Shown here: positions 30,411 through 39,169 of the stretch, in pieces | How the letters are laid out: each line of letters begins with the position of its first letter | Numbering within the stretch: the first letter of the stretch is position 1 | Translations under genes and position numbers: made by a program | Assembly: GCA_038064875.1 (NCBI GenBank) | Contig: JBBTSC010000001.1 | Span: forward strand, 443,004 to 507,003 | Origin: Patescibacteria group bacterium | Lineage (GTDB): Bacteria > Patescibacteriota > Saccharimonadia > Saccharimonadales > 2-12-FULL-41-12 | DNA length: 64,000 nt | Direction: 5' to 3' | The notes under the pieces: model-generated | The model's input: the letters and a program-made list of their open reading frames with translations, nothing else | Database searches by the model: none | What the model was told of the DNA's origin: nothing

Positions 30411-31931
30411 ATGCCAAAAACAAATGCGAAAATTGGTCTTTTAATCCAACACGTGCGACAAGAACGCGGAATGACCCAGGCCAGCCTAGCAAAACATCTA
30501 GGAACAAGTCAGAGTGCGATCAACCGCATAGAAAAAGGTAATCAGAACCTAAGTATTAATATGATCGGCAAGATCAGCGACATCCTCAACAAGCCGATCC
30601 TGCAAGTAGACAGTGGTGCCACAAACCTCCGAATAGAAGGCGGACAAGAGCTATCTGGAAGTGTATCTCTCAAAAAGAGCAAAAATGCAGCTGTTGCACT
30701 TCTGTGCGCGAGCTTGCTCAACCACGGGATAACTCGGTTCAAATCTTTTCCAAAAATAGAAGAGGTCAACAGAATTATTGAAACACTTGAGAGTATCGGC
30801 GTAAAAATCAAATGGGGCAAGAACGGTGACATAGAAATCAGAAGACCGGCAAAACTCAATCTAGAAAAAATAAACTCAAACTCAGCCAAAAAAACAAGAA
30901 GCGTTATTATGTTACTCGGCGCACTGATGCATGAATACAGTGAGTTCAAAATACCATATGCAGGGGGCTGTAAGCTGGGCGAACGTACGGTTACACCACA
31001 TCTTTATGCGCTGGAACAATTCGGTGTATCAATAGATACCAAAAATCATTATTATCATGTTAAATCTACTCCAAAGCACGTTAAGAGAGTAGTATTGTAC
31101 GAAGCTGGAAATACTGTTACCAACAACGTGCTGATGGCTGCGGCTTTCGATACGACTCCTACCATCATTCAGGGCGCAAGTGCTGACTATATGGTGCAAG
31201 ATCTTTGCTCATTTCTGAAAAGATTGGGTGTAAAGATAGACGGAGTTGGATCGCCAGTACTTACGGTCACAGGCATTTCAAAAGCAAAGAAAAATATATC
31301 TTTCAGTGCAACAGAAGACCCGATAGAGGCTATGTTCTTTATTTCTGCAAGTGTGACAACAAATTCTAGTATCACAATCGAGCGAGTACCTTTTCATTGG
31401 ATAGGTCTAGAGCTACTAAAGTTAGAGAAAATGGGCCTTGCCTTTAAAGTTGGTAAGCCCTACCCGTGTGACAACGGAGTTACTGAGCTTGCTGACATAA
31501 AAATCGAAAAGCACGATGGAAATCTCCGCGCACCTATAGAAAAGATCCATCCGAATTTGTGGCCTGGGCTCAACCCGGATAATATTCCATACTTCGTACC
31601 AATTTGTGCAACCGCAAAAGGTAGGACTCTAATCCACGACTGGATGTTTGAAAATCGAGCAATATACTACACCGAACTGACAAAGATTGGGGCACATGTA
31701 GAGCTAGCTGATCCTCATAGATTATATGTAACTGGACCAACAAAGTGGGAAAATAGCGACGTTATTTGCCCCCCTGCTCTACGCCCAGCTAGTCTGCTAC
31801 TGATAGGAATGCTTGCTGCCGATGGAATTAGCACTCTTCGAAATGTTTATACAATAAATAGAGGTTACGAAGATTTGGCTAATAGGCTTAATTCGCTTGG
31901 TGCTAAAATAACCGTAATGAGCGAAATCTAG
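30411..31931 (+). CDS. murA: fusion protein: N-terminal XRE HTH domain plus MurA-type UDP-GlcNAc 1-carboxyvinyltransferase
   Basis: aa 1-65 match the XRE HTH (RQERGMTQASLAKHLGTSQSAINRIEKG). The rest aligns by eye with MurA (SKNAAVALL for K22/N23; YAGGCKLGERTV for the Cys115 loop). Confidence 0.85.
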   Translation: MPKTNAKIGLLIQHVRQERGMTQASLAKHLGTSQSAINRIEKGNQNLSINMIGKISDILNKPILQVDSGATNLRIEGGQELSGSVSLKKSKNAAVALLCASLLNHGITRFKSFPKIEEVNRIIETLESIGVKIKWGKNGDIEIRRPAKLNLEKINSNSAKKTRSVIMLLGALMHEYSEFKIPYAGGCKLGERTVTPHLYALEQFGVSIDTKNHYYHVKSTPKHVKRVVLYEAGNTVTNNVLMAAAFDTTPTIIQGASADYMVQDLCSFLKRLGVKIDGVGSPVLTVTGISKAKKNISFSATEDPIEAMFFISASVTTNSSITIERVPFHWIGLELLKLEKMGLAFKVGKPYPCDNGVTELADIKIEKHDGNLRAPIEKIHPNLWPGLNPDNIPYFVPICATAKGRTLIHDWMFENRAIYYTELTKIGAHVELADPHRLYVTGPTKWENSDVICPPALRPASLLLIGMLAADGISTLRNVYTINRGYEDLANRLNSLGAKITVMSEI

Positions 31932-31982: not shown

Positions 31983-32057
31983 GCGGGTGTCGTATAACGG
32001 CTAATATGCCTGCCTTCCAAGCAGGCGATGAGAGTTCGATTCTCTCCACCCGCACCA
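31983..32057 (+). tRNA. tRNA-Gly (anticodon UCC), CCA encoded
   Basis: Hand-folded: anticodon arm CCTGC-CTTCCAA-GCAGG, T arm GAGAG-TTCGATT-CTCTC. Confidence 0.9.
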
Positions 32058-32066
32058 AATTTAAAT

Positions 32067-32143
32067 GCCCTGGTAGCTCAGCTGGATAGAGCAGGAGACT
32101 TCTAAGCTCAAGGCCGTAGGTTCGAATCCTACCCGGGGCACCA
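32067..32143 (+). tRNA. tRNA-Arg (anticodon UCU), CCA encoded; weak anticodon stem
   Basis: Good acceptor, D and T arms. The anticodon loop CTTCTAA is flanked by only 3 Watson-Crick pairs (G27/A43 and A31/G39 are mismatched). Confidence 0.7.
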
Positions 32144-32194
32144 CATTTTTATAAACACTTTTCCCGATAAGTAATCAAGATTTGATAATTTATC

Positions 32195-32225
32195 GGGGCC
32201 AGGAGTTTACTCTTTGGCTCCACCA
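32195..32225 (+). other. tRNA-Ala-like acceptor minihelix ending in ACCA (relic or small RNA)
   Basis: GGGGCCA pairs with TGGCTCC, including G3:U70, then GGAG-TTTA-CTCT, then ACCA. The same acceptor signature occurs in tRNA-Ala and tmRNA. Confidence 0.35.
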
Positions 32226-32244
32226 CGTTTTTACTCAAAATTGT

Positions 32245-32322
32245 GGCGGGTGTAGCTCAGCTGGTTAGAGCGCCGGGTTGTGGTTCCGGAGGCCGTGGGT
32301 TCAAGACCCATCACTCGCCCCA
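32245..32322 (+). tRNA. tRNA-His (anticodon GUG) with encoded G-1 and CCA
   Basis: G-1 lies opposite C73. Anticodon arm CCGGG-TTGTGGT-TCCGG, T arm GTGGG-TTCAAGA-CCCAT. Confidence 0.9.
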
Positions 32323-32328
32323 AAATTA

Positions 32329-32979
32329 TTACAAATTTGAAATCAGAAAAACTACTGCTATGGGTACGAGCAGGTTATCCAAGCCCTTGATAGTGGTATT
32401 TTCTATAATGCTAAGAGTTATTGGCATTGCTATCAATAGCCAGACATAATCCTCGTACCTTCCAGAAAGCAAGATATAAAAAGTCGTTATCACCAAAGAA
32501 CATAGTAAGAAAGTTACTGAGCCGAGCACTGTCTTGGCTTCGTGTCCTATATGATAAGCAATCTTTTTGCCCCATTTTTTGCCAACAACTGCTGCCAAAC
32601 CATCAGCCAATGCCAAGTGTGCTACGGCAACAAAAAATACCCATGGGTCTTCTGTTATAAACGATGTCATGAGTATCCCTAGTGGGAAAAGCACTGCTCC
32701 GTACGTCTGTCGGCTGACACTATGTATCGACGAAAAAATCTTGAAGTAGTGCGAAGTGAGCGCTACAGTGAACATGAGAGCAGACAAAACTTTTATCTCT
32801 GGAAAATCTATCAAAAAGGGCCAGCTAGCTATCCAAAGACCGCCAACAATATGTATGAACTTCCGAGAGAGTTCGTTTGAAAGTATTTTTTTGTACCATA
32901 GTATTTCGCCTGCAAAAACCACAAAGCCAAGAACGGCTGATACTACAATAATTGAAAAGATATTCAGTTGCTCTATCAT
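32329..32979 (-). CDS. membrane protein of the CTP-dependent polyprenol/diacylglycerol kinase / cytidylyltransferase (CdsA-related) family
   Basis: Multi-TM protein with RKFIH and LADGLAAVVGKKWGK motifs. Confidence 0.6.
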   Translation of the reverse strand: MIEQLNIFSIIVVSAVLGFVVFAGEILWYKKILSNELSRKFIHIVGGLWIASWPFLIDFPEIKVLSALMFTVALTSHYFKIFSSIHSVSRQTYGAVLFPLGILMTSFITEDPWVFFVAVAHLALADGLAAVVGKKWGKKIAYHIGHEAKTVLGSVTFLLCSLVITTFYILLSGRYEDYVWLLIAMPITLSIIENTTIKGLDNLLVPIAVVFLISNL

Positions 32980-35378
32980 TGTTCTTGGCTCTCAAAATCA
33001 GCGACAGTCAAATTTATAACTCCACCTGCACCAATTTCTTGGCTGAGAACCTTTTTAGCAACAATGTTTTCAACATATCTCTGCGCCATGCGCCTCATAG
33101 GCCGGGCGCCAAGCATTGGGTCATACCCCTTATTGATCAACCATTTCTTGCCTGCTTCGTCGACGCTAACCTGAATTTTCTGTGGCTCAAGAGTTTTGTT
33201 GATTGAGCCAATTATAATACTAACTACCTGCACCAAATCATCCGGAGTTAGCGGTTCAAACAACACCACTTCGTCATATCTATTAACAAATTCTGGGGTA
33301 AATATTCTATCGTTGATCAGTTTTTCAACAATCTTATCCTCAGCATCTGGCTGATTAATTTCACCACTGGAGACCATTGATCTAATATCATTTGCCCCAG
33401 CGTTTGACGTGGCAATAATTATTGAATCTTTAAAAGAAACTTGTTTGTTATTTGAATCTTTCATGACTCCTTCGTCGAGCATTTGAAGCAACAGCCCTAG
33501 AACACTTGGATGTGCCTTTTCAATCTCATCTAGTAGCACCACACTAAATGGTTTCTTTCGCATTTGTCCTAGGAAACTAAGCTGATCGCCTTCGTTACCA
33601 GCGCTGACAAGTCTATTGACATCACTTGGTTCAACGAATTGGTTCATGTCTACTCTAACTATTGATGATTCATCCCCAAAATAAACTCTTGCTAAAGCCT
33701 TGGTAAGCTCTGTCTTACCAACACCAGTTGGGCCAATGAACAAGAATGTACCTACTGGTCGATCAGCAGACCCAACGCCACTCCTAGAACGACGTAGTGC
33801 ATCTGACACCGCTCTAATTGCCCGCTTTTGGCTAATAACATGCTGGCTGAGATTTTTCTCTAAATCGAGCAAGTTGGTTGCCTCTCCTGCCTGCGCAGTT
33901 TGCAGTTTTACACCTTTAGAACGCTCAAGGCTTAGCTTTATAACTGCATCTGTCACGTAACCATTTTCCGTATAGGCCGGGGCTTCTTCTAAAACTTTGA
34001 GGGCAGCACCTGGCATGGCCAGACTATCTTCATATCTTTTACCAAGCTTGTACGCCTCACGAAGAGCTTGATAAGTAAAAGTGCATTTATGTTTGAACTC
34101 AACCAAAAGTATTTGATTCTGCAAAATTCTGATAGAGTCTGATTCGTTTGCTTCAGGTAAATTAACAGACTGTATCTTGGATGTTAGTGAGCTTCCTCTC
34201 GCCTGCAAACTTTGCCACTGCTTTGGCGTTATCGCAAAAATCATTCTGACAGCGCCTGATTCAAGCGCCTGCGAGAGCACGTTAGACAGATCAACTGCTC
34301 CAACACCCTCACTGAAAAACACTTCTGCATTATCAAAAAACAAGATAATATTCTTGGCTTTATGTGCTTCGTTGATCATATGAATAACAAGCTGTTCGAG
34401 TTGACCGGGTCTGGTAGCCCTAGAAATCATAGCGCTGGCATCCAACATGACTACTTGCTTGTACCTGAGATTTTTTGGAGAAGAAGCGCTCAGGATTTGC
34501 TCGGCAAAAGCATATGCGGTAGTTGTTTTGCCAGATCCGTTTTCACCAACAATAGCTATAGATTTGTTTGTGTTGCTCATTGACTGAATCATGCCACCAA
34601 CCACCTGCTGATGAAGCGACGTGTCTTGGAAAAATCCATAGAGTTCAATTTCTCGCGAGATACTATAGCCAAAACTTTGAAGCACCGGCGTATAACCATA
34701 CGTCCAGTCACGAGCCAATCCTCCAAAATTCTTTTTTTCTCTTGCTTGTTTATGCTGATAACTTAGGCTACTCATCCAAAGCACTCCATTCTCAATATCG
34801 GCTCGTGACAACTTGAGTTTGTTCAGAAGACCCTCTGCGTCAGGCAAAGAAAGTATAAGGCCAGCCATGACAAGTTCCTGGGAATAGTAGCTCATGGATA
34901 GCTTGCTCCTGAGCGCCTCTGTATTGCGCCAAACCACGGCCTCACTGGAAGGATCTTTAGAGAGCATATTTTCAAAAATCTCTGTCGGTAACACAAATCT
35001 ATTTTGGAAAAAGTACCGAGCAGACAGTCTCTCTATCGCTTTCCAAATTAAATATGCAGACTGTGAGCCATTTTTCATATTTGCCAAAATCTGTTGATCA
35101 AGTACATCGTCTACTTTACCTGTCTTGTTGCCAATATTTTTATTTAACTGTGACAACTCACCTGCAGTCCAAAACCTAATTGACAAAGTTAACAGTCCTA
35201 CGCTCAAGAATAAGCCTGAAAGTTTCGGCATCGCATAGAGCAACATAAGTCCAAATAACAAGAAAGCCACTGCTGACAAATTCAAAATCTGGCGGAGGAA
35301 TTTATTATCAAGCGCTTTAAATATACGTGCTTTGACAGCTCTATCAGAATCTAGATTTAAATAATTACCCTGCACCAT
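32976..35378 (-). CDS. membrane-anchored double-AAA+ Clp/Hsp100-like ATPase
   Basis: Two N-terminal TM helices and Clp_N-like repeats. D1 has GENGSGKT and ILFFDNAE; D2 has GPTGVGKTE, LLDEIEKAH and GARPMRR. Start taken at ATG 35378. Confidence 0.85.
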   Translation of the reverse strand: MVQGNYLNLDSDRAVKARIFKALDNKFLRQILNLSAVAFLLFGLMLLYAMPKLSGLFLSVGLLTLSIRFWTAGELSQLNKNIGNKTGKVDDVLDQQILANMKNGSQSAYLIWKAIERLSARYFFQNRFVLPTEIFENMLSKDPSSEAVVWRNTEALRSKLSMSYYSQELVMAGLILSLPDAEGLLNKLKLSRADIENGVLWMSSLSYQHKQAREKKNFGGLARDWTYGYTPVLQSFGYSISREIELYGFFQDTSLHQQVVGGMIQSMSNTNKSIAIVGENGSGKTTTAYAFAEQILSASSPKNLRYKQVVMLDASAMISRATRPGQLEQLVIHMINEAHKAKNIILFFDNAEVFFSEGVGAVDLSNVLSQALESGAVRMIFAITPKQWQSLQARGSSLTSKIQSVNLPEANESDSIRILQNQILLVEFKHKCTFTYQALREAYKLGKRYEDSLAMPGAALKVLEEAPAYTENGYVTDAVIKLSLERSKGVKLQTAQAGEATNLLDLEKNLSQHVISQKRAIRAVSDALRRSRSGVGSADRPVGTFLFIGPTGVGKTELTKALARVYFGDESSIVRVDMNQFVEPSDVNRLVSAGNEGDQLSFLGQMRKKPFSVVLLDEIEKAHPSVLGLLLQMLDEGVMKDSNNKQVSFKDSIIIATSNAGANDIRSMVSSGEINQPDAEDKIVEKLINDRIFTPEFVNRYDEVVLFEPLTPDDLVQVVSIIIGSINKTLEPQKIQVSVDEAGKKWLINKGYDPMLGARPMRRMAQRYVENIVAKKVLSQEIGAGGVINLTVADFESQEQ

Positions 35379-35739
35379 CACCTCCAACGACCAACATTAA
35401 TATAGGCAGAATGATGATGGCGAGCGGGATAAAAGCCCAAGAGGCTAAAACAACAAAAAAACAAACGCTCAATAACGATATTATGATTCCTGCACCTATA
35501 AGTACAAATATCCTTATGATAAAACCAATTACCCTTGAAACAGTATTGTCCACTAACGCCTGGAAGAAATTACGAAGCGTAGCCTCTGTGTAGAGCTGTT
35601 TCCAGGGAGAGAACAGTGTTTTGAGCAATATAACAACTGAAAAACTCCTCAACAATGAAGATAATTTCTTGCTGTATTCGGATAAAATCCAAGCCCATCC
35701 AGCACCATACCACCACTTTAAATATAAGATAATTGCCAT
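35365..35739 (-). CDS. small polytopic membrane protein, overlaps the Clp-like gene start
   Basis: Track ORF, 124 aa, hydrophobic, with a 14-nt overlap with the downstream gene. Confidence 0.5.
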   Translation of the reverse strand: MAIILYLKWWYGAGWAWILSEYSKKLSSLLRSFSVVILLKTLFSPWKQLYTEATLRNFFQALVDNTVSRVIGFIIRIFVLIGAGIIISLLSVCFFVVLASWAFIPLAIIILPILMLVVGGDGAG

Positions 35740-35906
35740 AACTGGTAGTATTTTAACACTTATGGTTATCTATGTTAATTTGCATTAGAATATTATGTGC
35801 TGTAAAGTATTATCTGTGAAAACATTTGTAACAACCAGCAATCTCATTCTCCTCAGTCAAAAACTGATGGCTTGAGCGTGTAGTTACAAAAATAATTTAG
35901 AAAAAC

Positions 35907-35956: not shown

Positions 35957-36229
35957 ATGGAAGGCTCAATAACCGAAAGTTTAAGATCACAAAATATAGA
36001 ACCAAGTAGGTGCAATGTACCGGATGAAGCCACTGTCAGAAAATACGGCGCATTTACTTTCACTATGTACACTGGTCCTGGGTCTATCGAGCCCATGCGT
36101 GATTTTTTTGTGAATTTTCCAAATGAGGAAGATTTTGAACAGATGCTTCAAGAAAGATTGGGCGAATGGGCCCAAGAAAATGTAGTTAATAACCCCGATG
36201 GTAACTTTTGGAGAGACAAGCCCGCATAA
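35957..36229 (+). CDS. hypothetical protein (90 aa)
   Basis: Track ORF with a strong SD (AAGGAG). Confidence 0.5.
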   Translation: MEGSITESLRSQNIEPSRCNVPDEATVRKYGAFTFTMYTGPGSIEPMRDFFVNFPNEEDFEQMLQERLGEWAQENVVNNPDGNFWRDKPA

Positions 36230-36275
36230 GGTGTTAATTTGAAATTTGCCGAGATTTGAAGGATAATTAACATCT

Positions 36276-37178
36276 ATGGAAAGTTTTCTACCGAAATGCT
36301 ATTTTCAGGGCAAAATTATTAATTTTAAAGATGCCAAAATCTCGGTAGCAACCCACGCACTACATTATGGAACTGGAGCTTTTGGCGGACTCAGAGCAAC
36401 CGTAGACACAAAAACCAAACAGGTCGTACTTTTTAGATTAAAAGATCACTGCAAACGCCTAAGTAAAAGCGCCAAACTCCTAGGCTACGATTTATCACCT
36501 AAATTCATTGAAGAAAAAATTACCGAATTCGTAAAAGCCAATCCAACTAAAAAAGATTATTATATTAGGCCTTTGATTTATGTATCTGATCTTGGCATAG
36601 CACCTAGACTACATAATGTATCCTATGATTTTCTGATATATGGGTTACCAATGGGCGATTACCTCAACAAGGGAGGTGTGAAAGTTTGTTTTAGCTCATG
36701 GGTGCGCGGTGAAGATAGAAGCCTTCCCCTAAGAGGAAAAATAACGGGCACTTACGTCACAAGTGCGCTTTCAAAAACAGAAGCTCACGCTAGAGGCTTT
36801 GATGAAGCAGTCTTGCTCAATTCACAAGGGAAAATTGCTGAGGCAAGTGCTATGAATATATTTATTGTCAGAGATGGTGAGCTTATTACCCCTTCAGTTA
36901 ATCAAGATATTTTAGAAGGGATTACTCGTGACAGCATCATGAAGATTGCAGAAAATCTTGGCTACAAAGTGACTGAACGTGCTGTTGATAAATCAGAACT
37001 GATTATTGCCGATGAAGTTTTCCTTACCGGAACCGCTGCACGAATAACTCCTGTTAAAAAAATTGAAGGTTATAGCTTGCCAAGAAACAATCCCGTGACA
37101 AAAGCTCTTTCTAAAGAATTCGCAAATATATTTGAAAACCCAAATTCACAATACTCAGAGTGGCTGACTAAGATATAA
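36276..37178 (+). CDS. ilvE: branched-chain amino acid aminotransferase (class IV PLP enzyme)
   Basis: THALHYGTGAFGGLRA signature. 300 aa. Confidence 0.85.
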   Translation: MESFLPKCYFQGKIINFKDAKISVATHALHYGTGAFGGLRATVDTKTKQVVLFRLKDHCKRLSKSAKLLGYDLSPKFIEEKITEFVKANPTKKDYYIRPLIYVSDLGIAPRLHNVSYDFLIYGLPMGDYLNKGGVKVCFSSWVRGEDRSLPLRGKITGTYVTSALSKTEAHARGFDEAVLLNSQGKIAEASAMNIFIVRDGELITPSVNQDILEGITRDSIMKIAENLGYKVTERAVDKSELIIADEVFLTGTAARITPVKKIEGYSLPRNNPVTKALSKEFANIFENPNSQYSEWLTKI

Positions 37179-37184
37179 AAGTGA

Positions 37185-37904
37185 CTACCTGCCCAGAGAC
37201 CTGGCAACTTTGCGTGCTTCAACAGCCAACTGATCATCAACTAATTTTGGCTGATAGTTGCCGAATTTTCTGACAACTGCTTTTTCTATTAACCAGTCTG
37301 CTATAGCTGGATTTTTAGGCAAAAGCGATCCGTGGAGATAGCTACCAATTACGTTTTTATACAGAGCACCTTCTGATTTGTCTTTGCCGTTATTGCCTGC
37401 TCCTCTGACTACTTTCGCCAGCGCCTTTTGATCAGCATCAAGAACAGTCAACCCACTATGATTTTCATAGCCAACAATCTCGCCAAATAAATCACTCTTT
37501 GTCACGATATTACCAATCAATCTCTTTGGTCCACCGACTGTCTGAGCTCCAAAAATACCTATTCCTTCTATCCTATCGCCTTGTGCCGTTTCAAAATACC
37601 GGCCAAAGAGCTGATAGAGACCACAGATCATCAACATTGGCACTCCATCGTCAGCAAGTTTGTGTAAATTTTTACTTATTTTAAGAAGATCGTCACGAAT
37701 TTTATCCTGGCCAGAATCCTGTCCCCCGCCACCGACAATGATGTCCACTTCTTTAGGAAAAGGTTTCCCGGGATGGTGCTCTAAAATTTCAACGCTATAT
37801 CCCTGCCATTCGAGTCGTTTTTTTAAGGTCAGGGCATTTCCCCAGTCACCATATATATTCATCTCCGAGGGATAGAGTTGTAATAGTCTAATTTGCTTGG
37901 TCAT
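37185..37904 (-). CDS. gatD: lipid II isoglutaminyl synthase, glutamine amidotransferase subunit (GatD, CobB/CobQ-like GATase)
   Basis: LYPSEMNIYGDWGN, ICGLYQLFG (Cys nucleophile) and a 4-nt overlap with murT. Confidence 0.85.
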   Translation of the reverse strand: MTKQIRLLQLYPSEMNIYGDWGNALTLKKRLEWQGYSVEILEHHPGKPFPKEVDIIVGGGGQDSGQDKIRDDLLKISKNLHKLADDGVPMLMICGLYQLFGRYFETAQGDRIEGIGIFGAQTVGGPKRLIGNIVTKSDLFGEIVGYENHSGLTVLDADQKALAKVVRGAGNNGKDKSEGALYKNVIGSYLHGSLLPKNPAIADWLIEKAVVRKFGNYQPKLVDDQLAVEARKVARSLGR

Positions 37905-39169
37905 AATACCCTCTCTATATCTGTCTTTTTTCGAAGCAGTTGCCGGAATTCAAGCATTGCAGTATAGGTGCAAAAGATTCTCTTGGGTTTTGTTGGTTTA
38001 GACTCAATAAATTGGTTTAGCGCTTTTGAAAGCTTTGGCTCAACTAAATTTACATGAATATCATCGTACTGAAGTCTAAGAGCCATATCATAAGCACGAA
38101 TTCCGCTTACTGTATTGACCAAATGGCCCAGTGAAGTAAAATCAACATCCCAAAGCCACGACATATCACGCCCATCAGCATAATTATCATTTATTGCGAT
38201 CATGGTCTCCACATTGCTGGAGTTGAATGATTTAAGACCGAGACGAAATCCAGCTGGATTTTTTACCAGCACGAGCTCAAGTGGCTGGCCATTTACGTGG
38301 ACAACCTCGCCTCGCCCAAAAGCAGGCGTTATATCCTCTAAACGTTTTGCGAGAGCATCAAGGTTAATATCATCTTCACAGACCGCTTTTACTAAACAAA
38401 GTGCCGCTGCGATATTGAAAATATTGTAGATACCGGTTATCTTCAGATTAACTGCCAGTGGCTTATTATCAATATATATTTCTGCCTGACTATCTTTAAA
38501 ATCACTCAGTATGACTTCTGCTTCGACCGATGGCTGGTCTGATTTTTTGACACCGTACATCTCATCATCATTTGGAAAATTCTCCTGTAATTTGGGGTCA
38601 ATGCCAAAAAACTTTATTTTTTTGTCACCAAGATCGTCTGCTATTTTCCTAAGCCGAGCATCCTCGCGATTTATAACAACTGTGTCTTTTGTCGCTAGAG
38701 CAATCTTCTGAAGCATACCGGCCGTTACGTCTATCTCACCAAACCGATCGAGCTGATCACGCATGACATTTAGAAGCAAGCTATACCTCGGCTTTATTTC
38801 GCTCACAAAATGTACTGCGTGAGCTTCATCAAGTTCAAGTACGGCGATGTCTGCATCAAGATTGCCATTTAGATCCATCTCGCTAATCAGAGCTGATATC
38901 ACTCCTCTCTTAAAATTACTGCCTGTCGAATTAGAGAACACCTTAAAACCTTGGCTCTCTAAAAGTTCTGTGACTATTTTTGAAGTTGTTGTCTTACCAT
39001 TCGTTCCACTAATGACAATAACGCCATGAGGTAATGTACCAAGTGCTTTTTTTAGGAAAGTTTTGTCTATCTTTTCAACAGCCAAACCAGGCAAAGCTGA
39101 TCCGCCACCCCTGAGTCGTGACGCTACTCGAACGCCTTTACCTATTAATACGGTTGATTTCTTGACCAT
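37901..39169 (-). CDS. murT: lipid II isoglutaminyl synthase, Mur-ligase-like subunit (MurT)
   Basis: P-loop GTNGKTTT, Mur-ligase middle domain and a DUF1727-like C-terminus (DGRDMSWLWDVDF). Confidence 0.85.
   Translation of the reverse strand: MVKKSTVLIGKGVRVASRLRGGGSALPGLAVEKIDKTFLKKALGTLPHGVIVISGTNGKTTTSKIVTELLESQGFKVFSNSTGSNFKRGVISALISEMDLNGNLDADIAVLELDEAHAVHFVSEIKPRYSLLLNVMRDQLDRFGEIDVTAGMLQKIALATKDTVVINREDARLRKIADDLGDKKIKFFGIDPKLQENFPNDDEMYGVKKSDQPSVEAEVILSDFKDSQAEIYIDNKPLAVNLKITGIYNIFNIAAALCLVKAVCEDDINLDALAKRLEDITPAFGRGEVVHVNGQPLELVLVKNPAGFRLGLKSFNSSNVETMIAINDNYADGRDMSWLWDVDFTSLGHLVNTVSGIRAYDMALRLQYDDIHVNLVEPKLSKALNQFIESKPTKPKRIFCTYTAMLEFRQLLRKKTDIERVL

What the first reader, a model, noticed from the sequence alone, without database searches (positions are those of the whole stretch)
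32976..35739. Membrane-anchored two-ring Clp/Hsp100-like ATPase with a degenerate first Walker B, coupled to a small polytopic membrane protein
Seen:
- The roughly 800-aa protein starts with two hydrophobic helices (LNLSAVAFLLFGLMLLYAMP and LSGLFLSVGLLTLSIRFW).
- Clp_N-like repeats follow.
- D1 has Walker A GENGSGKT, but its Walker B reads ILFFDNAE. Asn sits where the catalytic Glu of ...DE... is expected.
- A short linker follows, with no long ClpB-type M-domain.
- D2 is intact (GPTGVGKTE, LLDEIEKAH, GARPMRR).
- I see no obvious ClpP-docking IGF/L loop.
- Its start overlaps by 14 nt the stop of a 124-aa multi-TM protein.

Inference: a membrane-tethered unfoldase/extractase with an ATP-binding but hydrolysis-impaired first ring, working with the small membrane partner. 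It does not look like a standard ClpA/B/C.
Basis: partly seen in the sequence, partly recalled or inferred. Interest (0 to 1): 0.55.

Follow-up and report, generated by a model that had tools for sequence, protein, structure and literature searches.

The report
Membrane-anchored Clp ATPase lacking pore loops
This is a real two-gene unit, found throughout the ultra-small "CPR" bacteria, that pairs a tiny membrane protein with a membrane-anchored relative of the Clp/Hsp100 protein-unfolding motors; the motor has lost the gripping loops such machines use to thread proteins, so it probably works in a different, still unknown way near the cell-wall and division machinery.

Summary
A 124-aa membrane protein gene (35365-35739, -) overlaps by 14 nt an 800-aa two-ring Clp/Hsp100-like ATPase gene (32976-35378, -). 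The ATPase has an N-terminal transmembrane hairpin, Asn at the D1 Walker B Glu position, no M-domain and no ClpP-docking loop.

- D1 also lacks the Arg fingers and the pore-loop Tyr.
- The GYVG pore loop of the catalytically complete D2 is excised (a 5-6 residue deletion; 0 of 72 relatives keep an aromatic there).
- The pair is a large, uncharacterised, Patescibacteria-wide family. I found at least 1,300 ATPase relatives and about 1,400 small-protein clusters.

The small gene sits directly upstream of the ATPase in every informative locus: 69 of 69 metagenome loci, 10 of 10 Saccharibacteria loci and 4 of 4 Parcubacteria loci. Most junctions overlap.

Neighbours are repeatedly cell-wall or division genes: MurT/GatD in Saccharibacteria and mraZ-rsmH-ftsL-ftsI in Parcubacteria. 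The likely ortholog pair in Southlakia epibionticum (SEML1_0700/0701) is non-essential by Tn-seq, with a late growth-defect call.

Best reading: a membrane-tethered hexamer driven by D2 alone, acting with its small partner and not a canonical threading or ClpP-coupled unfoldase. I rate it a new variant of a known kind, interest about 0.6.

The parts
35750..35778 (-). Promoter-like site (TTAACA, 17 nt spacer, TG-TAAAAT) just upstream of the small gene
   Evidence: Consensus scan only, 10 of 12 matches with an extended -10 TG. Not evidence of function.
35365..35739 (-). Small partner gene. It encodes a 124-aa membrane protein with a conserved N-terminal aromatic motif (WWYGxGW), a FSxxxLLxTLFSPW[KR] motif and a C-terminal hydrophobic hairpin.
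   Evidence: ORF. 43 close homologs share invariant W9 W10 Y11 G14 S34 L38 T41 L42 F43 P45 D64 S68 R69 G72 R76 W101 P105. 1,396 clusters at 50% identity match at E<=1e-3. No hit in Pfam, NCBIfam or PADLOC. AF2 model pLDDT 80; no PDB fold match.
32976..35378 (-). Membrane-anchored two-ring Clp/Hsp100-like ATPase gene (800 aa from the ATG; an alternative TTG start lies at 35387)
35304..35378 (-). Conserved basic cytosolic N-terminal segment (aa 1-25, SxRAxKAR motif, helix 12-23)
35154..35303 (-). Transmembrane hairpin (aa 26-75; helices 26-49 and 51-75 with the short turn MPK)
   Evidence: AF2 helices. Kyte-Doolittle scan: 73 of 75 Saccharibacteria-clade and 115 of 115 Parcubacteria-clade relatives have 1-3 (two in 99) strongly hydrophobic N-terminal segments, against none in 38 of 41 ordinary Clp proteins.
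34734..35153 (-). Divergent Clp_N-like helical N-domain (aa 76-215)
   Evidence: hhalign 87.5% probability, E 3.6e-6, to Clp_N repeat 2 plus linker. 8-9 helix bundle in the model. The full-length Foldseek match to ClpC spans 803 columns. No Pfam hit.
34659..34733 (-). Hyper-conserved linker motif FGGxARDWxxGYTPxLxxFG (aa 216-240), the equivalent of the TPxLDxFGxDLT linker of ordinary Clp proteins
   Evidence: Invariant G219 G220 R223 D224 G228 L233. Lowest entropy outside D2, 1.08. Aligned by hhalign.
33909..34571 (-). D1 AAA+ module (aa 270-490), a predicted pseudo-ATPase. Walker A GENGSGKT is kept. Walker B is ILFFDN. The pore-loop position reads SRATRPGQ (no Tyr). The Arg-finger position reads SLTSKIQS (no RR). 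There is no M-domain insertion.
34323..34346 (-). D1 Walker B ILFFDNAE, with Asn350 at the catalytic Glu position
33249..33761 (-). D2 AAA+ large domain (aa 540-710) with a complete active site: Walker A GPTGVGKT, Walker B LLDEIEK, sensor-1 TSN and Arg finger NRYDE
   Evidence: Pfam AAA_2 E 8e-44. The motifs are invariant across the family.
33576..33605 (-). Remnant of the D2 pore loop (aa 592-601, SAGNEGDQLS). The GYVG tip is missing.
   Evidence: Alignments. Walker A to Walker B spacing is 57 or 56 residues against 62 in ordinary Clp. 0 of 72 relatives have an aromatic here; entropy is 1.89 against 0.93 for D2 overall.
32994..33248 (-). D2 small domain (aa 711-795) with sensor-2 GARPMRR
   Evidence: Pfam ClpB_D2-small E 1.6e-19.
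32329..32979 (-). Third gene of the local operon: a 216-aa polytopic membrane protein with a weak CTP_transf_1 (CdsA / polyprenol-kinase clan) match. It overlaps the ATPase stop by 4 nt. It is lineage-specific and not part of the conserved pair.
   Evidence: Pfam E 0.003, below the cut-off. Found near the ATPase in only 5 of 75 loci, and directly downstream in L003.

Best explanation
**What it is (shown).** The locus is an operon for a Patescibacteria/CPR-wide, membrane-anchored paralog of the class-I Clp/Hsp100 AAA+ ATPases together with its obligate small membrane partner.

**How I think it works (inferred).**
- The ATPase forms a ring, probably a hexamer, because D2 keeps a trans-acting Arg finger and the D2-small domain.
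- Twelve N-terminal transmembrane helices tether the ring to the cytoplasmic membrane. The N-domain/D1 face therefore points at the membrane.
- D1 is a structural ring that binds nucleotide but does not hydrolyse it. In Saccharibacteria the Walker A Lys is kept, but the catalytic Glu, both Arg fingers and the pore-loop Tyr are missing. In Parcubacteria the Walker A itself is degenerate.
- D2 is the only motor.
- The aromatic pore loops are absent from both rings, there is no ClpP-docking loop and there is no M-domain. So the machine is unlikely to be a processive polypeptide-threading unfoldase, a ClpP partner or a DnaK-coupled disaggregase.
- I propose that D2's ATP cycle drives rigid-body movements that pass through the N-domain and transmembrane hairpin to the small 2-TM partner. 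That partner would be the anchor/adaptor or the client. This mode resembles Torsin and its membrane cofactors more than ClpB.
- The process served is probably cell-envelope or division biogenesis, judged from conserved gene neighbourhoods.

My confidence is about 0.9 for the identity and architecture and about 0.4 for the non-threading, envelope-linked mechanism. The single figure given is a compromise.
For: **Architecture and motifs**
- ORFs and translation.
- Pfam AAA_2, ClpB_D2-small and AAA_lid_9, with no Clp_N.
- Scores far below the ClpA, ClpB, ClpG, ClpK and ClpV equivalog cut-offs.
- Residue-level alignment to ClpC and ClpB shows DN for DE, TRPG for KYRG, TSKIQ for ERRFQ, and a shortened D2 loop.
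- AF2 model: pLDDT 87, pTM 0.78, two long N-terminal helices; the Foldseek top hits are full-length ClpC, ClpB and ClpA.

**Family-wide conservation of the oddities**
- 72-75 Saccharibacteria relatives.
- 115 Parcubacteria-clade relatives: D1 P-loop GxxGSGRKS, no RR, D2 loop 'GSPG------EEGLLTT'.
- Spacing statistics and 0 of 186 relatives with a ClpP tripeptide.
- The same genomes keep a canonical Clp paralog with GYVG, DE and RR (L066; SEML1_0512 plus ClpP SEML1_0493). The losses are therefore specific to this paralog.

**Pairing with the small gene**
- Directly upstream in 10 of 10 Saccharibacteria loci.
- In 69 of 69 informative metagenome loci retrieved with the small protein as bait, with 0 unpaired.
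- In L011, L012 and L167-169.
- 67 of 77 junctions overlap.

**Size of the family**
- 1,316 ATPase hits at E<=1e-5.
- 1,396 small-protein clusters.

**Neighbourhood**
- MurT in 35 and GatD in 24 of 75 loci.
- mraZ-rsmH-ftsL-ftsI directly downstream in 4 of 4 Parcubacteria loci.
- rsmH/ftsL, MraY/WecA-like GT4 and a WbaP-like transferase in other clades.
- Cell-wall genes around the pair in the window itself.

**Genetics**
- The probable S. epibionticum orthologs SEML1_0700/0701 have the same Pfam coordinates, a 22-nt overlap and an adjacent MurT/GatD.
- Both tolerate many insertions and both are called NE, NE, GD. Normalised reads fall 4124 to 1638 and 258 to 51 (PMC10633639 Table S1/S2).

**Precedent**
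- Torsins are Clp/Hsp100-related and membrane-associated, lack aromatic pore loops and depend on transmembrane cofactors. Aromatic pore loops are critical for processive Clp/Hsp100 unfolding (PMC5425593).
Against: - No experiment bears on mechanism. Absence of aromatic pore loops argues against canonical threading but does not exclude gripping by aliphatic or other loop residues.
- In 22 of 65 Saccharibacteria relatives a G-F-L-G tetrapeptide lies 5-6 residues after the expected GYVG site. By alignment and by the model it is the N-terminus of the helix before Walker B, but I cannot exclude that it faces the pore.
- Unlike Torsin, D2 has its own Arg finger and the protein has two rings.
- Gene-neighbourhood evidence is partly phylogenetic inertia within each clade. 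In the window itself MurT/GatD are separated from the pair by two inserted genes and lie in a different orientation.
- Physical interaction between the two proteins was not modelled, because no multimer tool was available.
- Orthology with SEML1_0700/0701 rests on domain coordinates and synteny, not on a sequence alignment.
- The GD call is modest and comes from an HMM that smooths over neighbours. The essential MurT gene is adjacent.
- Asp at the Walker B Glu position (40 of 72) might retain weak hydrolysis.
Confidence: 0.5

Rival explanations
1. The protein is a membrane-tethered unfoldase or extractase, like Msp1/ATAD1 or the AAA module of FtsH. It pulls membrane proteins out of the bilayer through its central channel using D2 as the motor. 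The small protein would act as adaptor or substrate receptor.
For: - The transmembrane hairpin places the D1/N-domain (entry) face at the membrane.
- The N-domain is Clp_N-like, a domain type that binds adaptors and substrates.
- D2 has a complete catalytic site.
- The overall fold matches substrate-threading ClpC, ClpB and ClpA hexamer subunits.
- The obligate membrane partner could deliver clients.
Against: - Neither ring has the aromatic-hydrophobic pore-loop motif. The D2 loop is shortened by 5-6 residues, has no aromatic in 0 of 72 relatives and evolves twice as fast as the rest of D2.
- Aromatic pore loops are critical for processive Clp/Hsp100 unfolding (PMC5425593).
- There is no associated protease domain and no ClpP-docking loop to dispose of extracted clients.
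Confidence: 0.25
2. It is an ordinary but divergent ClpC or ClpA that docks on ClpP and feeds it substrates. On this view the unusual features are just rapid CPR sequence drift.
For: [quoted passage not shown]
- Saccharibacteria do encode ClpP (SEML1_0493).
- The D1-D2 spacing is ClpA-like.
Against: - No [ILVM]G[FL] docking tripeptide in 0 of 186 relatives, against 22 of 34 ordinary Clp proteins.
- Scores are far below the ClpA, ClpB and ClpC-type cut-offs.
- The same genomes carry a separate canonical ClpC-type paralog with all motifs, so drift is not genome-wide.
- The transmembrane anchor and the pore-loop deletion are conserved synapomorphies.
Confidence: 0.03
3. It is a purely structural, enzymatically dead scaffold. 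On this view it is a pseudo-enzyme in both rings and only organises a membrane complex with the small protein.
For: D1 is clearly degenerate and the pore loops are lost.
Against: D2 Walker A, Walker B DE, sensor-1, Arg finger and sensor-2 are invariant or nearly so across more than 180 relatives in two deep clades. D2 is the most conserved part of the protein, with a mean top-residue frequency of 0.75. That pattern indicates selection for ATP hydrolysis.
Confidence: 0.07
4. It is an anti-phage or other defence module built on a ClpB-D2-like ATPase, related to DolB or PDC-M37B.
For: PADLOC gives partial hits of the D2 region to DolB (E 2.6e-29) and PDC-M37B (E 3.8e-20).
Against: - The hits cover only the generic AAA_2 core (aa 494-671).
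- The small protein has no PADLOC hit.
- The pair is a single-copy, vertically conserved core gene pair with stable housekeeping neighbours: MurT/GatD and the dcw cluster. It is flagged 'core family' in PMC10633639 Table S1. Defence islands are variable.
Confidence: 0.03

Closest known systems
ClpA / ClpC (class-I Clp/Hsp100 unfoldases, ClpP partners)
   Same: - Two AAA+ modules in one chain (D1 classic AAA, D2 AAA_2) plus the D2-small domain.
- ClpA-like D1-D2 spacing with no long M-domain.
- A Clp_N-derived N-domain and the TPxLxxFG linker.
- Best structural matches are full-length ClpC chains.
   Different: - N-terminal transmembrane hairpin.
- D1 without the catalytic Glu, the Arg fingers or the pore-loop Tyr.
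- D2 GYVG loop excised.
- No IGL/VGF ClpP-docking loop and no UVR/M-motif.
- An obligate small membrane partner.
- NCBIfam ClpA score of 336 against a cut-off of 993.
ClpB / Hsp104 disaggregases
   Same: - The D2 region is about 40% identical to ClpB D2, and ClpB is the best NCBIfam hit for D2.
- There is no ClpP loop, as in ClpB.
   Different: - No M-domain coiled coil, which is the defining DnaK/Hsp70-coupling element.
- No pore-loop tyrosines.
- Membrane anchored.
- Score of 386 against a cut-off of 1232.
Torsin ATPases with the LAP1/LULL1 cofactors (eukaryotic ER and nuclear envelope)
   Same: - Related to the Clp/Hsp100 D2 type.
- Membrane-associated through an N-terminal hydrophobic segment.
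- Lack aromatic pore loops.
- Work with transmembrane partner proteins.
- Believed not to thread substrates processively (PMC5425593).
   Different: - Torsins have a single AAA+ ring, lack their own Arg finger (the cofactor supplies it), are lumenal and occur only in eukaryotes.
- Here there are two rings, D2 has its own Arg finger, the enzyme is cytoplasmic, and the partner is a 124-aa 2-TM protein with no AAA-like fold.
- Only sub-threshold Pfam Torsin matches appear, and only in distant relatives (E 0.02-0.09).
- This is an analogy, not membership.
FtsH and Msp1/ATAD1 (membrane-anchored AAA+ extractases and proteases)
   Same: An N-terminal transmembrane anchor holds a hexameric AAA+ ring at the cytoplasmic face of a membrane.
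   Different: - Those are single-ring classic-clade AAA proteins with aromatic pore loops, and FtsH also has a protease domain.
- This protein is a two-ring Hsp100-clade enzyme without pore-loop aromatics or a protease.

Membership tests
Class-I Clp/Hsp100 AAA+ superfamily (broad sense) | Two tandem AAA+ modules (D1 and D2/AAA_2) followed by the ClpB_D2-small domain | tested here: met
   Pfam AAA_2 E 8e-44 and ClpB_D2-small E 1.6e-19, with the D1 P-loop module at 270-410. Foldseek E 1e-45 to full-length ClpC.
Class-I Clp/Hsp100 AAA+ superfamily (broad sense) | Clp_N (double repeat) N-terminal domain | tested here: inconclusive
   No Pfam hit. hhalign gives 87.5% probability, E 3.6e-6, over repeat 2 plus the linker. 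The model has a helical bundle of the right size. About 20 of 120 Parcubacteria-clade relatives carry a precomputed PF02861 hit.
Class-I Clp/Hsp100 AAA+ superfamily (broad sense) | Aromatic pore loops (D1 K-Y-R; D2 G-Y-V-G) used for substrate threading | tested here: not met
   D1 reads TRPG and D2 reads SAGNEGDQLS. 71 of 72 (D1) and 72 of 72 (D2) relatives have no aromatic there. D2 carries a 5-6 residue deletion.
Class-I Clp/Hsp100 AAA+ superfamily (broad sense) | Catalytically competent D1 (Walker B Glu and Arg fingers in ERRFQ) | tested here: not met
   N350 sits at the Glu position (family: D 40, N 25, E 7). The RR pair is replaced by SK or other residues in all relatives.
ClpB / Hsp104 | Long coiled-coil M-domain inserted in the D1 small domain | tested here: not met
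   The D1-D2 P-loop distance is 272 residues, against up to 417 in ClpB-type proteins. There is no coiled coil in the model. TIGR03346 scores 386 against a cut-off of 1232.
ClpA / ClpC / ClpE (ClpP-coupled) | ClpP-docking [ILV]G[FL] loop in D2 | tested here: not met
   0 of 74 and 0 of 112 relatives have it, against 22 of 34 ordinary Clp proteins. There is a gap at the ClpC VGF position in the alignment.
ClpA / ClpC / ClpE (ClpP-coupled) | Score above the curated equivalog cut-off | tested here: not met
   ClpA TIGR02639 scores 336 against 993. PRK11034 scores 281 against 1350.
Torsin | Single AAA+ module lacking an Arg finger, matching Pfam PF06309 | tested here: not met
   The window protein has no PF06309 hit. 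Distant relatives have only sub-threshold hits (E 0.02-0.09, 13-15 bits against a cut-off of 27). The protein has two modules and the D2 Arg finger is present.
FtsH | C-terminal M41 zinc-protease domain after a single AAA module | tested here: not met
   There is no peptidase domain. The C-terminus is ClpB_D2-small.
CPR membrane-anchored Clp-like ATPase plus small partner (family delineated here; not a named family) | N-terminal TM hairpin, degenerate D1, D2 with an excised pore loop, and a roughly 125-aa WWY/TLFSP membrane protein encoded directly upstream | tested here: met
   The window pair has all four features. They are shared by Saccharibacteria, Parcubacteria and other CPR loci.

The most novel reading that the evidence does not exclude
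The pair is a previously unrecognised, Patescibacteria-wide membrane machine. It would be a bacterial functional analogue of Torsin and its transmembrane cofactors, in which an Hsp100-derived ring that has given up polypeptide threading uses D2 ATP hydrolysis to remodel or gate a small membrane partner. The role would lie in cell-wall precursor handling or division, given the dcw- and MurT/GatD-linked neighbourhoods. That could compensate for divisome or envelope factors these reduced genomes lack.
Probability: 0.3. Interest if true: 0.8.

Novelty: new variant of a known kind. Interest (0 to 1): 0.6.

Why it matters
- Clp/Hsp100 machines are the textbook case of unfolding by pore-loop threading. 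A large, strongly conserved branch that is membrane-anchored, has a dead first ring, has excised the tyrosine loop of its only active ring and always travels with a tiny membrane protein implies a different way of using the Hsp100 scaffold.
- The branch sits in Patescibacteria, a group that makes up a large share of bacterial diversity and whose envelope and division biology is poorly understood.
- Its conserved position beside dcw and lipid-II-amidation genes gives a concrete hypothesis that can now be tested, because Saccharibacteria such as Southlakia epibionticum are genetically tractable and already carry viable transposon insertions in both genes.
- In practice, current annotations ('ClpC', 'Clp protease ATP-binding subunit') are misleading for more than 1,000 database proteins.

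Tried and rejected
- **Small-protein fold.** Foldseek of the small-protein model against PDB gave nothing (best E 4.0).
- **Small-protein families.** Pfam, NCBIfam and PADLOC gave no family.
- **Genome scan.** It returned mostly ordinary Clp genes and only 5 family members. It still exposed the wider CPR relatives (L011, L012, L015, L036, L079).
- **GFLG false alarm.** A regex suggested that 22 of 65 relatives carry a 'G-aromatic-hydrophobic-G' motif in D2. On inspection this is GFLG at the start of the helix preceding Walker B, aligned with G[Q/Y]LT of ordinary Clp. I rejected it as the pore loop.
- **Fusions.** I looked for fusions of the small protein to the ATPase among the top 150 representatives and found none.
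- **The 216-aa downstream gene.** I considered it part of the system and rejected that: it is near the ATPase in only 5 of 75 loci.
- **Taxonomy check.** Exact-sequence look-ups meant to verify the taxonomy of the 'Gammaproteobacteria'-labelled loci returned no names.
- **Literature.** Searches for a described membrane-anchored bacterial Hsp100 or CPR Clp paralog found nothing specific.
- **Signal peptide.** I rejected this reading of the hydrophobic helices. The first hydrophobic helix starts at residue 26, a second one follows, and ATP-dependent domains must be cytoplasmic.

Full report
**1. What is in the window**

On the minus strand three ORFs are packed head to tail:
- a 124-aa ORF at 35365..35739;
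- an 803-aa ORF at 32976..35387 with a TTG start;
- a 216-aa ORF at 32329..32979.

The junction sequence reads ...GTTGGAGGTGATGGTGCAGGGTAA. Starting the large ORF at the ATG at 35378 gives an 800-aa product. That product is 100% identical to an NCBI protein named 'AAA family ATPase [Patescibacteria group bacterium]' on a 766-kb contig. Its N-terminus also lines up with all relatives. The 216-aa ORF overlaps the ATPase stop by 4 nt.

A promoter-like site lies just upstream of the small gene. A convergent tRNA-His ends the unit.

**2. The ATPase is Clp/Hsp100-like but fits no named subfamily**

- Pfam finds AAA_2 (543-706, E 8e-44), ClpB_D2-small (713-791) and a weak AAA_lid_9. It finds no Clp_N.
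- NCBIfam equivalogs are missed by a wide margin: ClpB 386 against 1232 bits, ClpA 336 against 993, with ClpG, ClpK and ClpV lower still.
- phmmer against PDB aligns D2 at about 40% identity to ClpC and ClpB, and aligns the whole D1-D2 body to ClpA in one stretch.
- An AlphaFold2 model built on 72 relatives is confident (pLDDT 87, pTM 0.78). It shows helices 12-23, 26-49 and 51-75, then an 8-9 helix bundle (89-213), D1, a four-helix lid without insertion, and D2.
- Foldseek's best hits are full-length ClpC, ClpB and ClpA subunits (E 1e-45 downward).

**3. Motif by motif**

*D1*
- Walker A GENGSGKT is kept. In 72 relatives Lys is kept in 69 and Thr or Ser in 71.
- The Walker B Asp is kept, but the catalytic Glu position is Asn here. 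Across the family it is D in 40, N in 25 and E in 7.
- The D1 pore loop KYRG is replaced by TRPG or similar, with no aromatic in 71 of 72.
- The Arg-finger pair of ...ERRFQ... is absent in all relatives. Assigning these residues as Arg fingers rests on established ClpB/Hsp104 knowledge.
- D1 is therefore predicted to bind nucleotide but not hydrolyse it.

*D2*
- Walker A, Walker B DE, sensor-1 TSN, the Arg finger (NR[FY]DE) and sensor-2 (GARP) are invariant.
- The GYVG pore loop is gone. The Walker A to Walker B spacing is 57 residues (56 in Parcubacteria) against 62 in ordinary Clp.
- The remnant (SAGNEGDQLS here) has no aromatic in 72 of 72 relatives. It is about twice as variable as D2 overall (entropy 1.89 against 0.93).
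- A 'GFLG' seen in some relatives is the start of the next helix and not the loop.

*Other elements*
- No ClpP-docking [ILVM]G[FL] tripeptide occurs in 0 of 186 relatives, against 22 of 34 ordinary Clp proteins.
- No M-domain: the D1-D2 P-loop distance is 272 residues, against 277-417.

**4. Membrane anchor and N-domain**

The two hydrophobic helices follow a conserved basic 25-residue segment and are joined by a 3-residue turn. Basic residues flank both cytoplasmic ends. 73 of 75 Saccharibacteria-clade relatives have one or two strongly hydrophobic N-terminal segments, and all 115 Parcubacteria-clade relatives have one to three (two in 99). 38 of 41 ordinary Clp proteins have none. This is a hairpin anchor with both ends inside, not a signal peptide.

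The N-domain gives no Pfam Clp_N hit. A profile-profile comparison aligns its second half and the hyper-conserved FGGxARDWxxGYTPxLxxFG linker to Clp_N repeat 2 plus the TPxLDxFG linker of ordinary Clp proteins (probability 87.5%, E 3.6e-6). Some Parcubacteria relatives do carry Clp_N hits. 'Clp_N-like' is plausible but not proven.

**5. The small protein and the pairing**

- The 124-aa protein has no family in Pfam, NCBIfam or PADLOC, and no fold match in PDB.
- Its 43 close homologs share 17 invariant residues: WWYGxG, FSxxxLLxTLFSP, DxxxSRxxGxxxR, and W...P in the hydrophobic C-terminal half.
- A profile search of 1.84 billion representative proteins finds 1,396 clusters at E<=1e-3 and 912 at E<=1e-10. 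Almost all are 116-137 aa, and none of the top 150 is fused to an ATPase.
- Starting from the ATPase, the small gene is directly upstream in 10 of 10 Saccharibacteria loci, including one where it was not called.
- Starting from the small protein, 69 of 69 metagenome loci with room have the family ATPase directly downstream. 11 run off the contig and none is unpaired.
- 67 of 77 junctions overlap, most often by 4, 13, 1 or 10 nt.

**6. The family is CPR-wide**

The small-protein HMM also hits ORFs directly upstream of TM-anchored, D1-degenerate Clp-like genes in several other groups:
- a 'Patescibacteria group' MAG (L011);
- Parcubacteria DG_74_3 (L012);
- weakly, three MAGs labelled Gammaproteobacteria, a label I could not verify.

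A profile of the N-terminal half of eight diverse members retrieves 1,316 proteins at E<=1e-5. The top 120 are proteins of about 850 aa from Parcubacteria, Nealsonbacteria, Pacebacteria and similar groups. In that clade:
- the D1 Walker A is itself degenerate (GxxGSGRKS), while Walker B DE is kept;
- D1 has no Arg fingers and no pore aromatic;
- D2 reads 'GSPG------EEGLLTT' where ordinary Clp has 'GSPPGYVGYEEGGQLTE'.

The two clades have therefore disabled D1 in different ways but share the D2 pore-loop excision and the anchor. Both features must be old in this lineage. Canonical Clp paralogs with all motifs coexist in Saccharibacteria (L066; SEML1_0512 and ClpP SEML1_0493). The changes are thus specific to this paralog.

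**7. Context**

- In 75 Saccharibacteria loci, MurT occurs in 35 and GatD in 24. Together they form the lipid II iso-glutamine synthase. They usually lie directly adjacent to and divergent from the pair. Further out come a peroxiredoxin and an OpgC-like acyltransferase (17 loci each). Downstream genes vary.
- In the window, MurT/GatD are 1.4 kb away and co-directional with the pair. A class-IV aminotransferase and a 90-aa ORF lie in between, and an HTH-MurA fusion lies beyond the tRNAs.
- In 4 of 4 Parcubacteria loci the pair lies directly upstream of mraZ-rsmH-ftsL-ftsI(-mur).
- Other clades show rsmH/ftsL upstream and MraY/WecA-like GT4 or WbaP-like transferases downstream.

This recurring link to peptidoglycan and division genes across deep clades is the only functional lead. 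It is guilt by association.

**8. Published genetics**

In the Tn-seq of Ca. Southlakia epibionticum (PMC10633639, Tables S1 and S2):
- SEML1_0700 ('AAA family ATPase') has Pfam AAA_2 at 544-706 and D2-small at 713-792, virtually the coordinates found here.
- SEML1_0701 is a 384-bp hypothetical gene that overlaps SEML1_0700 by 22 nt.
- The two lie divergent from MurT (SEML1_0702) and GatD (SEML1_0703).
- Both genes carry many insertions and are called NE, NE, GD at T0-T2. Normalised reads fall 4124 to 2517 to 1638 and 258 to 157 to 51.
- SEML1_0700 is flagged as a core family but not as Patescibacteria-enriched.

I infer orthology from domain coordinates and synteny only. The result says the pair is dispensable in laboratory co-culture, with at most a mild and concordant fitness cost. 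The paper does not discuss these genes.

**9. Mechanism**

*Shown:* the architecture, the motif states, their conservation, the pairing and the neighbourhoods.

*Inferred:*
- a ring (hexamer) tethered with its D1 face toward the membrane;
- D1 as a structural nucleotide-binding ring;
- D2 as the sole motor;
- no ClpP coupling and no DnaK coupling;
- because aromatic pore loops are critical for processive Clp/Hsp100 unfolding (PMC5425593) and are absent from both rings, an action other than canonical threading.

The most plausible such action is ATP-driven remodelling or gating of, or through, the small membrane partner within an envelope or division context. Torsin with LAP1/LULL1 is the nearest precedent for an Hsp100-related, membrane-associated, pore-loop-less ATPase that depends on transmembrane partners. 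This protein is not a Torsin family member: it has two rings, its own Arg finger, and no PF06309 hit.

It would require non-canonical substrate gripping.

**10. Verdict**

I found no description of this family in the searchable literature. I rate it a new variant of a known kind, with interest about 0.6.

Noticed in passing
window 30411-31931 (+): A 506-aa protein fuses an XRE-type helix-turn-helix domain (PF01381, aa 14-63) to a MurA/EPSP-synthase-fold enzyme (PF00275, aa 76-492). It joins a DNA-binding domain to the first committed enzyme type of peptidoglycan synthesis.
   Followed up: no
window 32329-32979 (-): A 216-aa polytopic membrane protein has a sub-threshold CTP_transf_1 (CdsA / polyprenol-kinase clan) match and is translationally coupled to the ATPase stop by a 4-nt overlap. 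It is conserved directly downstream only in the closest relatives (L003) and lies near the ATPase in 5 of 75 loci.
   Followed up: partly
window 31983-32322 (+): A tRNA cluster Gly(TCC)-Arg(TCT)-His(GTG) is convergent on the end of the operon.
   Followed up: no
window 35957-39169: Between the pair and GatD/MurT (37185-39169, -) lie a class-IV aminotransferase (36276-37178, +) and an unannotatable 90-aa ORF (35957-36229, +). MurT/GatD are co-directional with the pair here but divergent and directly adjacent in most other Saccharibacteria, which implies a local inversion or insertion.
   Followed up: partly
L012, L167, L168, L169 (Parcubacteria-clade loci): The small gene and ATPase pair sits immediately upstream of mraZ-rsmH-ftsL-ftsI in 4 of 4 loci. 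L168 and L169 also have a DUF4015/GHL10 gene between the pair and the dcw cluster.
   Followed up: partly
L028:869-3634 (+) and L028:738-1091 (+): A MAG labelled Saccharibacteria carries a further variant with N-terminal hydrophobic helices and only one recognisable P-loop (in D2). An upstream small ORF matches weakly (E 1.3e-4). This suggests still more degenerate branches of the family.
   Followed up: no
L015, L036, L079: Three MAG contigs titled 'uncultured Gammaproteobacteria' carry the CPR-type pair plus a MraY/WecA-like GT4 gene downstream. The taxonomic label looks doubtful but could not be checked.
   Followed up: partly
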